From IMG/VR virus record IMGVR_UViG_3300028952_000024, positions 1 through 7,662 of that record: a stretch of 7,662 nucleotides of DNA, one strand, 5' to 3'. Of this stretch, positions 4,288 through 5,061 are shown in pieces. This DNA is from a virus (lineage: Duplodnaviria; Heunggongvirae; Uroviricota; Caudoviricetes). The position numbers and the translations under genes were made by a program. Within the stretch, counting starts at the first letter, position 1; each line of letters starts with the position of its first letter. The notes under the pieces are model-generated. The model had not been told where the DNA came from. It saw only the letters and a list, made by a program, of their open reading frames with translations, and did no database searches.

Positions 4288-5061
4288 ATGGATATTACTG
4301 AGTTTCCTTCTGGAGTAATTGAACACCTTGGCTGGTATGTATACCGATTGATTGATCCGAGGGACGGAAGCACCTTCTATGTAGGGAAAGGCAAAGGTAA
4401 CCGCGTATTTGCCCATATGCGCGGTGAAGTGGCAGCGACTGATGATGACGAGTTACTGAGCAACAAGCTAAAGCAAATTAGAGAAATAAGGTTAGCAGGA
4501 CTTGAGGTTATCCATGTCATCCATCGACACGGAATGACTGATGAAAAGACGGCGTACGAAGTTGAAGCAGCACTTATTGATGCCTACCCTGGGTTAACGA
4601 ATATCATGAATGGTGCTGGCAGCAATGAATTCGGCGCCGCGCATGTCAAAGAGTTGATAGCAACATATCAACCCGAAACCATAATATTTCATCATAAAGC
4701 ATTAATGATTTCCGTTAACAGAAGTGCAAAGGATTCAGAGCTTTATGATGCGGTTCGATTTAGCTGGCGCATTAATGTCTCTCGCGCTAGCCAAGCAGAA
4801 GTCATTCTTGCTACTGTAAGGGGGATCGTTCGAGGGGTTTTCATTGCTGATAAATGGCTCAAATCAACACGTGAAAATTTCCCTACGATGAAATACTGGG
4901 ACGAGGATCCGGACTTTGAGGCAACACAAAGTTCTCGCTATGGTTTTGAAGGTCGAGAAGCCTCACCTGAAATAGCAAATCTTTATCTTGGAAAAAAAAT
5001 ACCAGATGAATTAAGAAAAAAAGGAGCTATGTCCCCGGTCCGTTACTCACCTAATTTTTGA
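4288..5061 (+). CDS. GIY-YIG nuclease-domain protein with an uncharacterised C-terminal domain, 257 aa
   Basis: The N-terminus carries a GIY-YIG signature: W16-Y-V-Y19 ... F30-Y-V-G33-K-G-K-G-N-R39-V-F-A-H43 (encoded about 4333-4416), with candidate catalytic E91 and N105 at typical spacing. The C-terminal ~150 aa has no motif I recognise. No Shine-Dalgarno is evident upstream of the ATG, and an in-frame stop at 4240-4242 excludes a longer N-terminus. Confidence 0.75.

What the first reader, a model, noticed from the sequence alone, without database searches (positions are those of the whole stretch)
4288..5061. Orphan GIY-YIG nuclease with an unrecognised C-terminal domain, between the RM system and the invertase
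The sequence shows a clean GIY-YIG signature (WYVY...[11 protein letters not shown], with E and N at the expected spacing) fused to about 150 aa that I cannot assign to any family. The gene stands alone in the window's cargo region, diverging from the methyltransferase gene across a 406-bp AT-rich gap. It is too long for a Vsr-like or YhbQ-like protein and does not look like a homing endonuclease embedded in an intron or intein. Possibilities, all inferred: a single-gene anti-phage nuclease, a modification-sensing restriction enzyme in which the C-terminal domain reads a DNA mark, or a repair nuclease coupled to the adjacent CCWGG methylation.
Basis: partly seen in the sequence, partly recalled or inferred. 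Interest (0 to 1): 0.72.

Follow-up and report, generated by a model that had tools for sequence, protein, structure and literature searches.

The report
Known anti-phage restriction enzyme CMoRE (PD-T4-3)
The gene is real, but it is an ordinary E. coli copy of CMoRE (PD-T4-3), a published, crystallised enzyme that protects bacteria by cutting phage DNA carrying hydroxymethylated or glucosylated cytosine.

Summary
The ORF at 4288-5061 (+), 257 aa, is real and carries a true GIY-YIG nuclease domain. It is not an orphan. It matches the PADLOC model PD-T4-3 end to end (E 9e-140). It is 97.7% identical (6 substitutions) to E. coli O157:H7 CMoRE, PDB 9U75, and 85% identical to APEC O1 CMoRE, 9U7U.

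Liu et al. [quoted passage not shown] The C-terminal domain binds 5hmC/5ghmC. The N-terminal GIYxY-YIG domain cuts at CN11/N9G. An acidic loop keeps it off host DNA, and it ignores C and 5mC DNA. Every residue named in that paper is present here: Y17, Y19, Y31, D52-E55, R80, V92, L96, Y127.

The "repair nuclease coupled to CCWGG methylation" guess is not supported. The proposed E91A control probably targets the wrong glutamate, because E93 is the invariant one.

The gene occurs in 838 of 5426 complete E. coli genomes, usually beside the pinE invertase at a prophage end. K-12 e14 has mcrA in the equivalent place. The EcoRII R-M system is a separate module, present next to it in only 242 genomes.

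Verdict: already known, low interest.

The parts
4288..5061 (+). [quoted passage not shown]
   Evidence: ORF list. PADLOC PD-T4-3, residues 1-256 against model positions 1-255 of 256, E 8.7e-140. phrog_5356 full length, E 3.8e-143. 97.7% identical to PDB 9U75 and 85.2% to 9U7U.
4288..4617 (+). N-terminal GIYxY-YIG nuclease domain (about residues 1-110), with Y17, Y19, Y31, R39, H43, E93 and N105
   Evidence: Pfam PF22945 matches residues 28-110. All seven residues are invariant in alignment A1. Y17/Y19/Y31 mutants lose defence and nuclease activity in the O157:H7 protein.
4441..4452 (+). Four consecutive acidic residues, D52-D53-D54-E55, in the inserted alpha2-alpha3 loop (autoinhibitory 'safety catch')
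   Evidence: Sequence. The same DDDE run is in 9U7U and DDDD in 9U75. Replacing the four residues with alanine makes the O157:H7 enzyme cut ordinary DNA and makes it toxic. The run is absent from the jumbo-phage homologues.
4645..5058 (+). C-terminal modification-sensing domain (approximate start; residues about 120-257), including Y127 (nt 4666-4668)
   Evidence: No Pfam or NCBIfam hit. [quoted passage not shown] Y127 is present here. The domain boundary is not stated in the text I read, so the start coordinate is my estimate.
4087..4287 (+). Conserved upstream region that travels with the gene (presumed native promoter and leader)
   Evidence: Homology with five R-M-free or differently placed copies begins at 4076-4087. 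The consensus promoter scan found nothing here above background, so promoter function is inferred. This region carries a 3-bp insertion about 20 bp before the ATG relative to the other copies.
4087..4113 (-). Remnant of the anticodon stem-loop of a tRNA-Ser(CGA)-like sequence (fossil attachment site)
   Evidence: 24 of 27 identical to the fragment in O157:H7 PA20, where about 62 nt of tRNA 3' half, through to CCA, lie at this spot. ARAGORN finds no complete tRNA.
4074..4095 (+). Left copy of an imperfect direct repeat flanking the gene (GCATACTATGTGTCTACGGTTT)
   Evidence: Local alignment with 5102-5122: 19 matches in 22 columns with one gap; 0 of 2000 shuffles reach the score. A similar pair occurs in strains LD91-1 (26 of 32) and R12.
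5102..5122 (+). Right copy of the flanking direct repeat (GCATACGACGTGCTACGGTTT); it ends at the pin stop codon
   Evidence: In LD91-1, homology to the window is limited to 4076-5124, that is, the gene with its repeats and without pin.
5122..5676 (-). Context: pinE-type serine DNA invertase, convergent with CMoRE and 60 bp from it
   Evidence: Pfam Resolvase plus HTH_7. RefSeq pinE in the matching genomes. The CMoRE-pin junction is present in at least 570 genomes.
1199..2413 (+). Context: EcoRII-type restriction endonuclease (separate module)
   Evidence: Pfam EcoRII-N plus EcoRII-C. Present in 262 of 5426 genomes.
2448..3881 (-). Context: C5 cytosine methyltransferase of the EcoRII-type system (RefSeq start; the longest ORF extends to 3923)
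   Evidence: Pfam DNA_methylase plus DNA_meth_N. RefSeq CDS of 1434 nt.

Best explanation
[quoted passage not shown] The published mechanism, transferred here by 97.7% identity, runs as follows. The protein forms a tetramer (a dimer of dimers). The C-terminal domains of a dimer recognise two 5-hydroxymethyl- or glucosyl-hydroxymethyl-cytosines about 21 bp apart on opposite strands. The N-terminal GIYxY-YIG domains then cut between them (CN11/N9G, 2-nt 3' overhangs, Mg2+ or Mn2+). An acidic loop (D52-E55) lies over the active site and repels DNA that is not held tightly, so unmodified and 5mC host DNA is spared. The DNA of T-even phages is degraded early in infection and the cell survives, so this is direct defence and not abortive infection. 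Because the enzyme ignores 5mC, it can sit next to the EcoRII-type cytosine methyltransferase without harm. The two systems are independent modules that happen to cover complementary targets: unmodified CCWGG and hypermodified cytosine. Shown here: identity, intact ORF, presence of all named functional residues, distribution and context. Inferred by homology: activity, specificity and expression of this particular allele.
For: The protein matches the PADLOC PD-T4-3 model over its full length, E 8.7e-140, and phrog_5356. It has six substitutions against PDB 9U75 (T51A, E55D, I133T, Q169K, N197H, S226P; written window residue, position, 9U75 residue) and 38 against 9U7U, with no gaps. Y17, Y19, Y31, R39, D52-E55, R80, V92, L96 and Y127 are all present. 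Y17, Y19, Y31, R39, H43, E93 and N105 are invariant down to 30% identity. For the O157:H7 and APEC O1 proteins, the literature reports about 5-log protection against T2, T4 and T6. It also reports degradation of 5hmC/5ghmC DNA but not C or 5mC DNA, and resistance of T4(C). The same papers give the cleavage pattern, the structures, the toxicity of the 4A loop mutant and the need for oligomerisation. Independent support: deleting PD-T4-3 in the native host NILS69 raises plaquing of Tevenvirinae phages. A 48%-identical Capnocytophaga homologue is a modification-dependent nuclease in vitro. The 201-bp upstream region is shared with O157:H7 copies, and the O157:H7 gene gave strong defence from its native promoter.
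Against: Nothing in the sequence argues against this. The caveats are as follows. This exact allele has not been tested. Two of its six substitutions lie in or next to the autoinhibitory loop (T51, E55) and four lie in the linker or C-terminal domain. It also has a 3-bp insertion about 20 bp upstream of the ATG relative to other copies. The APEC O1 allele defended only weakly from its own promoter, so expression level differs between alleles. The consensus scan found no promoter or terminator above background.
Confidence: 0.95

Rival explanations
1. It is a CMoRE-family gene, but this allele is silent, weakened or has shifted modification specificity because of its six substitutions and its altered leader.
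For: Two substitutions flank or lie in the acidic loop and four lie in the linker or C-terminal domain. There is a 3-bp insertion near the start codon. The APEC O1 allele is weak from its own promoter. A distant homologue also cuts Mu DNA carrying carbamoylmethyl-adenine, so specificity in the family is plastic.
Against: All residues named as functional are unchanged. E55 and the DDDE run are the same as in the crystallised APEC O1 protein. The exact DNA sequence occurs in another complete genome, and copies at 99% identity or more occur in 296 records, which does not look like decay.
Confidence: 0.04
2. It is a Vsr-like or repair nuclease working with the adjacent CCWGG C5-methyltransferase, for example nicking T:G mismatches that arise from 5mC deamination.
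For: The gene sits next to and diverges from an EcoRII-type methyltransferase. The R-M/CMoRE junction is present in 242 of the 262 genomes that have the EcoRII endonuclease gene.
Against: About 71% of CMoRE-bearing genomes lack the adjacent R-M system. Homology between contexts breaks at 4076-4087 at a fossil tRNA att site, so the two are separate mobile modules. The enzyme does not bind or cut 5mC or unmodified DNA, and it makes double-strand cuts dependent on 5hmC/5ghmC. The EcoRII gene copies are at least 99% identical in 263 of 264 records. This fits a single recent joining that spread with the prophage, not repeated selection.
Confidence: 0.005
3. It is a free-standing GIY-YIG homing endonuclease that promotes its own spread, as its jumbo-phage homologues are annotated.
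For: There is a weak hit to a PHROG homing-endonuclease family, E 0.0034. Homologues in Pseudomonas phage OBP and Klebsiella phage N1M2 are annotated 'putative homing nuclease'. The gene is flanked by short direct repeats and occurs alone in LD91-1.
Against: Those annotations rest on the GIY-YIG motif alone. The characterised family members have no sequence-specific target beyond two modified cytosines and degrade the whole T4 genome. There is no intron, intein or split host gene around the ORF. The defence phenotype is shown genetically in a native host.
Confidence: 0.005

Closest known systems
CMoRE / PD-T4-3 of E. coli O157:H7 (PDB 9U75, 9U8D) and APEC O1 (9U7U, 9U7Z); Liu et al. 2026, PMC12923530; discovered as PD-T4-3 in ECOR68 by Vassallo et al. 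2022, PMC9519451
   Same: Same length and architecture with no gaps, 97.7% and 85.2% identity. All named catalytic, loop, interface and ligand-contact residues are identical. It is also a single-gene system in an E. coli prophage region.
   Different: Six substitutions against the O157:H7 protein: T51A, E55D, I133T, Q169K, N197H, S226P (window residue first). A 3-bp insertion in the leader. This copy has an EcoRII-type R-M system as its left neighbour, which most copies lack.
PD-T4-3Capno (Capnocytophaga homologue; Rodriguez-Rodriguez et al. 2025, PMC12366544)
   Same: Same family. A modification-dependent nuclease that cuts T4 DNA but not T4-GT7 DNA, and active-site mutants lose defence.
   Different: Reported as 48% identical to the original PD-T4-3. 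It also degrades Mu DNA carrying carbamoylmethyl-adenine. Whether the E. coli alleles do so was not established in what I read.
EcoKMcrA in the K-12 e14 prophage
   Same: A single-gene type IV restriction enzyme in the equivalent place, immediately after pinE at the prophage end. It works like CMoRE in that a modified-cytosine reader is fused to a nuclease.
   Different: An unrelated protein. From my own knowledge, it has an HNH nuclease and targets 5mC/5hmC. It is co-directional with pinE, whereas CMoRE is convergent with it.
PvuRts1I / AbaSI family of 5hmC/5ghmC-dependent restriction enzymes
   Same: Specific for 5hmC and 5ghmC over 5mC and C, as noted by Liu et al.. From my own knowledge, these enzymes cut at a fixed distance between two modified cytosines, about CN11-13/N9-10G, close to CMoRE's CN11/N9G.
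   Different: From my own knowledge, the nuclease is of a different fold class (PD-(D/E)XK-like) and the reader domain is SRA-like. Liu et al. report no sequence or structural homologue for the CMoRE C-terminal domain. A profile of this family finds only CMoRE entries in the PDB.
UvrC N-terminal GIY-YIG domain (PDB 1YCZ)
   Same: The closest structural neighbour of the nuclease domain according to Liu et al. The catalytic Arg and Glu are shared.
   Different: CMoRE has an extra tyrosine (GIYxY-YIG) and a 15-residue acidic insertion between alpha2 and alpha3. Sequence similarity is too low for the PDB profile search to detect.

Membership tests
CMoRE / PD-T4-3 defence family | Full-length similarity to the family model, both domains | tested here: met
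   PADLOC PDLC04031: residues 1-256 against model positions 1-255 of 256, 462.6 bits, E 8.7e-140. PDB 9U75, 567 bits, residues 1-257.
CMoRE / PD-T4-3 defence family | GIYxY-YIG motif with three tyrosines (Y17, Y19, Y31) | tested here: met
   Y17, Y19 and Y31 are present and invariant in seven sequences down to 30% identity. The motif is defined in the literature.
CMoRE / PD-T4-3 defence family | Inserted negatively charged alpha2-alpha3 loop with four consecutive acidic residues | tested here: met
   D52-D53-D54-E55, identical to the run in 9U7U. Liu et al. say most members, not all, have it. The jumbo-phage homologues lack it.
CMoRE / PD-T4-3 defence family | C-terminal modification-sensing domain with the 5hmC contact at Y127, and the oligomer interface residues V92 and L96 | tested here: met
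   Y127, V92 and L96 are present. The C-terminal half aligns without gaps to both crystallised proteins.
CMoRE / PD-T4-3 defence family | Single-gene system with no obligate partner | tested here: met
   The left neighbour varies among copies: an AraC-type regulator, the EcoRII R-M system, or a DinI pseudogene. The gene alone is shared with LD91-1.
CMoRE / PD-T4-3 defence family | Protection against T-even phages that depends on 5hmC/5ghmC, and cleavage of such DNA in vitro | not testable with these tools
   Shown for proteins 97.7% and 85.2% identical and in the native host NILS69. Not measured for this allele.
GIY-YIG nuclease superfamily | Catalytic core: two motif tyrosines, Arg, Glu and Asn at conserved spacing | tested here: met
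   PF22945 scores 54.2 bits against a cut-off of 27. R39, E93 and N105 are invariant. The generic PF01541 scores only 14 bits against a cut-off of 22.6, so membership rests on the LEM-3-like sub-model and the crystal structure.
GIY-YIG homing endonucleases (I-TevI type) | Location in an intron, intein or intergenic homing site, with a sequence-specific DNA-binding domain | tested here: not met
   The gene is free-standing prophage cargo with no split gene around it. The only similarity is a weak PHROG hit over the nuclease core, E 0.0034. Family members cut throughout the T4 genome.
Vsr-type very-short-patch repair endonuclease partnered with a C5 methyltransferase | Obligate genomic pairing with a C5 methyltransferase | tested here: not met
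   The R-M junction is found in 242 of about 838 gene-bearing genomes. The two modules are separated by a homology break at 4076-4087.
Vsr-type very-short-patch repair endonuclease partnered with a C5 methyltransferase | Similarity to a Vsr family model | tested here: not met
   Pfam and NCBIfam list no Vsr family among their hits.

The most novel reading that the evidence does not exclude
The only mildly new reading left open concerns context, not the protein, and has two parts. First, CMoRE may travel as a 1.05-kb cassette flanked by direct repeats (window 4076-5124) that is exchanged at the pinE-proximal end of e14-like prophages, where K-12 carries mcrA. Second, its joining to the EcoRII R-M system (242 of the 262 genomes with the EcoRII gene) may be a selected, layered unit. 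In such a unit unmodified CCWGG would be cut by EcoRII, 5mC would mark self, and 5hmC/5ghmC DNA would be cut by CMoRE.
Probability: 0.15. Interest if true: 0.3.

Novelty: already known. Interest (0 to 1): 0.1.

Why it matters
As a discovery it matters little. The family was found by functional selection in 2022, shown to be modification-dependent in 2025, and solved structurally with its mechanism in 2026, and this allele is 97.7% identical to a crystallised protein.

Three practical points remain:
- Annotation lags behind the literature. RefSeq still calls the protein 'LEM-3-like GIY-YIG domain-containing protein' or 'hypothetical', and neither Pfam nor NCBIfam covers the C-terminal domain, so a reader working from the sequence could not have placed it.
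- Anyone designing controls should mutate E93 (or Y17, Y19, Y31, R39) rather than E91.
- The window is a compact example of complementary cytosine-directed defences: a type II R-M system against unmodified CCWGG and a type IV enzyme against hypermodified cytosine. They are stacked at one prophage end, and this works because CMoRE ignores 5mC.

Tried and rejected
- NCBIfam gave no family for the protein.
- The generic Pfam GIY-YIG model is below its cut-off, and only the LEM-3-like sub-model passes.
- A seven-sequence family profile searched against all PDB sequences at E up to 10 returned only the four CMoRE entries. Neither UvrC nor any reader domain could be linked by sequence.
- The consensus promoter and terminator scan of 3850-5200 found nothing above the shuffled background, so the promoter is not located.
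- Rfam at gathering thresholds found nothing in the window. The two sub-threshold sRNA hits in 478-1198 (24-27 bits against cut-offs of 60-76) are treated as chance.
- ARAGORN found no tRNA or tmRNA gene in the window. The ssrA and tRNA-Ser pieces are fragments only.
- I first read the megablast hits labelled 'ssrA' as a 183-nt ssrA fragment. Direct alignment showed that only the last 28 nt of ssrA are present.
- The main text of Vassallo et al. 2022 does not contain the string 'PD-T4-3'; it mentions only 'a GIY-YIG nuclease'. The attribution to ECOR68 is therefore taken from Liu et al..
- The papers' text does not give residue numbers for the catalytic Arg and Glu. R39 and E93 are my assignment from invariance.
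- I did not run the large protein-database searches, structure prediction or fold searches. Crystal structures of near-identical proteins exist, and the authors report no structural homologue for the C-terminal domain, so these searches would not have changed the verdict.

Full report
**Observation**

The six-frame ORF list contains an ATG-initiated ORF at 4288-5061 on the + strand, 257 aa. RefSeq annotates exactly this ORF in a 100%-identical chromosomal copy in E. coli strain E4.

Pfam's LEM-3-like GIY-YIG model (PF22945) matches residues 28-110 at E 2.2e-14, above its cut-off. The generic GIY-YIG model stays below its cut-off. Nothing in Pfam or NCBIfam covers residues 111-257.

The 406-bp, AT-rich gap to the methyltransferase is correct when the RefSeq start of that gene (window 3881) is used. 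The gap has 35.7% GC, against 43.4% for the CDS.

**Identity**

The protein is not an orphan.
- The PADLOC defence library matches it end to end with model PD-T4-3 (E 8.7e-140, 462.6 bits).
- PHROGs matches it with phrog_5356 (E 3.8e-143).
- Against the Protein Data Bank it aligns without gaps to 'GIY-YIG domain-containing protein' 9U75/9U8D (567 bits) and 9U7U/9U7Z (503 bits).
- I count 6 differences from 9U75 (97.7% identity): T51A, E55D, I133T, Q169K, N197H and S226P, with the window residue given first. There are 38 differences from 9U7U (85.2%).
- These PDB entries are the E. coli O157:H7 and APEC O1 CMoRE proteins of Liu et al., Nat Commun 2026 (PMC12923530).

**What is known about the protein**

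PD-T4-3 was recovered from E. coli ECOR68 in the functional selection of Vassallo et al. 2022 (PMC9519451), as attributed by Liu et al.. The main text of the 2022 paper mentions only 'a GIY-YIG nuclease'.

Rodriguez-Rodriguez et al. 2025 (PMC12366544) studied a Capnocytophaga homologue reported as 48% identical. It defends against T-even phages but not cytosine-containing T4-GT7, degrades T4 DNA but not GT7 DNA in vitro, loses activity with active-site mutations, and also degrades Mu DNA.

In the clinical isolate NILS69, deleting PD-T4-3 raises the plaquing of Tevenvirinae phages.

Liu et al. report the following for the O157:H7 and APEC O1 proteins:
- About 5-log protection against T2, T4 and T6, without abortive infection.
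- Mg2+- or Mn2+-dependent degradation and binding of 5hmC and 5ghmC DNA, but not of C or 5mC DNA.
- Sensitivity of T4(hmC) and resistance of T4(C).
- Cleavage at CN11/N9G with 2-nt 3' overhangs, requiring two modified sites.
- A two-domain structure: an N-terminal GIYxY-YIG nuclease and a C-terminal sensing domain with no detectable homologue.
- A tetramer whose disruption (V92S/L96S) abolishes defence.
- A 15-residue acidic loop over the active site. Its four consecutive acidic residues, when changed to alanine, make the enzyme cut ordinary DNA and make it toxic.

**Mapping onto the window protein**

Y17, Y19, Y31, R80, V92, L96 and Y127 are all present at the published numbering, and the acidic run is D52-D53-D54-E55, as in APEC O1.

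Y17, V18, Y19, F30, Y31, G33, K34, G35, R39, H43, E93 and N105 are invariant.

The invariant glutamate is E93, not E91. E91 is Ala in Serratia phage Moabite and Leu in Escherichia phage CMS-2020a. The papers' text does not number the catalytic Arg and Glu, so R39 and E93 are my assignment.

**Surroundings**

The window is E. coli prophage DNA. From left to right it holds:
- a DUF6650 gene (1-477, minus strand);
- an EcoRII-type endonuclease (1199-2413) and its C5 methyltransferase (2448-3881, minus strand);
- CMoRE;
- a convergent pinE-type invertase (5122-5676, minus strand);
- an invertible tail-fibre segment bounded by perfect 76-nt inverted repeats at 5682-5757 and 7587-7662, the second cut by the window end.

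The CMoRE gene is found in 838 of 5426 complete E. coli genomes, all at 95% identity or more. The EcoRII endonuclease gene is found in 262 genomes. The R-M/CMoRE junction is found in 242 genomes, and the CMoRE/pin junction in at least 570.

I inspected eight annotated copies. In seven, the gene lies within about 1.3 kb of pinE at the end of an e14-like, Mu-tail-type prophage, directly adjacent in six and separated by an IS3 insertion in E4. The neighbour on the other side is an AraC-type regulator, the EcoRII R-M system, or (in LD91-1, which has no pin beside the gene) a DinI pseudogene. In K-12's e14, the gene after pinE at the prophage end is mcrA, another type IV restriction enzyme.

**The R-M system is a separate module**

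Homology between the window and the R-M-free copies begins at 4076-4087, about 200 bp upstream of the ATG. At that point the window carries, on the minus strand, a 27-nt remnant of the anticodon stem-loop of a tRNA-Ser(CGA)-like sequence (4087-4113). The O157:H7, O6:H16 and A38 copies have about 62 nt of the tRNA 3' half there, which is a fossil attachment site.

The far side of the R-M module carries the last 28 nt of ssrA (943-970). In strain R12 the same R-M/CMoRE/pin arrangement abuts the intact ssrA gene.

The 406-bp 'gap' is therefore composite: about 205 bp of R-M module and about 201 bp of CMoRE leader. Together with the published finding that the enzyme does not bind or cut 5mC DNA, this removes the 'repair nuclease coupled to CCWGG methylation' reading. 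It also explains why the two systems can coexist.

The EcoRII gene copies are at least 99% identical in 263 of 264 records. This fits one recent joining that spread with the prophage rather than repeated selection, although a selected, layered combination is not excluded.

**Verdict**

The feature is real. Its most specific published description, a single-gene type IV restriction enzyme for 5hmC/5ghmC DNA, applies with high confidence (0.95).

The third was wrong, one proposed control residue is probably wrong, and the claim of novelty does not hold.

Novelty class: already known. Interest: 0.1.

The only loose ends are contextual. One is the imperfect direct repeats flanking the gene (4074-4095 and 5102-5122; 0 of 2000 shuffles reach the score; also present in LD91-1 and R12). 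The other is the frequent linkage to the EcoRII R-M system. I give 0.15 probability that either reflects something beyond ordinary mosaic prophage history.

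Noticed in passing
window 943-970: The last 28 nt of ssrA (tmRNA) are present here, 27 of 28 identical to positions 336-363 of the R12 ssrA gene, with no tmRNA gene in the window. In strain R12 the same EcoRII/CMoRE/pin prophage end sits directly against the intact ssrA gene, so this is a fossil attachment-site copy that marks the outer edge of the R-M module.
   Followed up: partly
window 4087-4113 (minus strand): A 27-nt remnant of a tRNA-Ser(CGA)-like anticodon stem-loop lies here. 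R-M-free copies in O157:H7, O6:H16 and A38 carry about 62 nt of the tRNA 3' half, through to CCA, at the same spot. It looks like a second fossil att site and splits the 406-bp gap into two modules.
   Followed up: partly
window 4074-4095 and 5102-5122: Imperfect direct repeats (GCATAC..GTG.CTACGGTTT; 19 matches in 22 columns with one gap; 0 of 2000 shuffles reach the score) bracket the CMoRE gene, and the right copy ends at the pin stop codon. Similar pairs occur in LD91-1 (26 of 32) and R12. LD91-1 shares only 4076-5124 with the window, which suggests a 1.05-kb cassette. How it moves is unknown.
   Followed up: partly
L007 (K-12 MG1655, record positions 1209685-1211179) compared with window 4288-5676: In the K-12 cryptic prophage e14, the gene after pinE at the prophage end is mcrA, an unrelated type IV restriction enzyme. 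The pin-proximal prophage end therefore looks like a slot for modification-dependent nucleases.
   Followed up: partly
L009 3001-3765, L010 2992-3753, L011 2998-3744, L013 2989-3756: Full-length homologues, 38-46% identical by tblastn, are encoded by jumbo phages of 250-285 kb: Serratia phages Moabite and 2050HW, Pseudomonas phage OBP, Klebsiella phage N1M2 and Pantoea phage Survivor. They are annotated as homing nucleases or hypothetical proteins. They keep the catalytic residues but lack the four-acidic-residue safety-catch run and have a shorter loop. Their role in a phage is untested; possibilities include competition with hypermodified phages or less discriminating cutting.
   Followed up: partly
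window 5682-5757 and 7587-7662: Perfect 76-nt inverted repeats, the second cut by the window end, bound a 1.8-kb invertible segment next to the pin invertase. The segment holds alternative tail-fibre C-termini and two tail-fibre assembly genes. Both arms encode the same N-terminal peptide, MMPFACYFFIFINVGLGE.
   Followed up: partly
window 1-477 (minus strand), and L001 14743-16190: The ORF at the left edge is a DUF6650-family protein (Pfam E 1.3e-5, just under the cut-off; RefSeq names it DUF6650). In strain E4 it lies next to an AbiTii-domain gene, so this may be a further defence-type module outside the ssrA remnant. It has no PADLOC hit.
   Followed up: no
window about 4268-4270: A 3-bp insertion (TCT), about 20 bp upstream of the CMoRE start codon, relative to four other copies of the otherwise conserved leader. 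It could change translation initiation or promoter spacing.
   Followed up: no
L001 20825-21987: In strain E4, the only genome whose CMoRE gene is 100% identical to the window's, an IS3 element sits between CMoRE and pinE. The window and strain TUM10008 lack it, so the window is not from E4 itself.
   Followed up: yes
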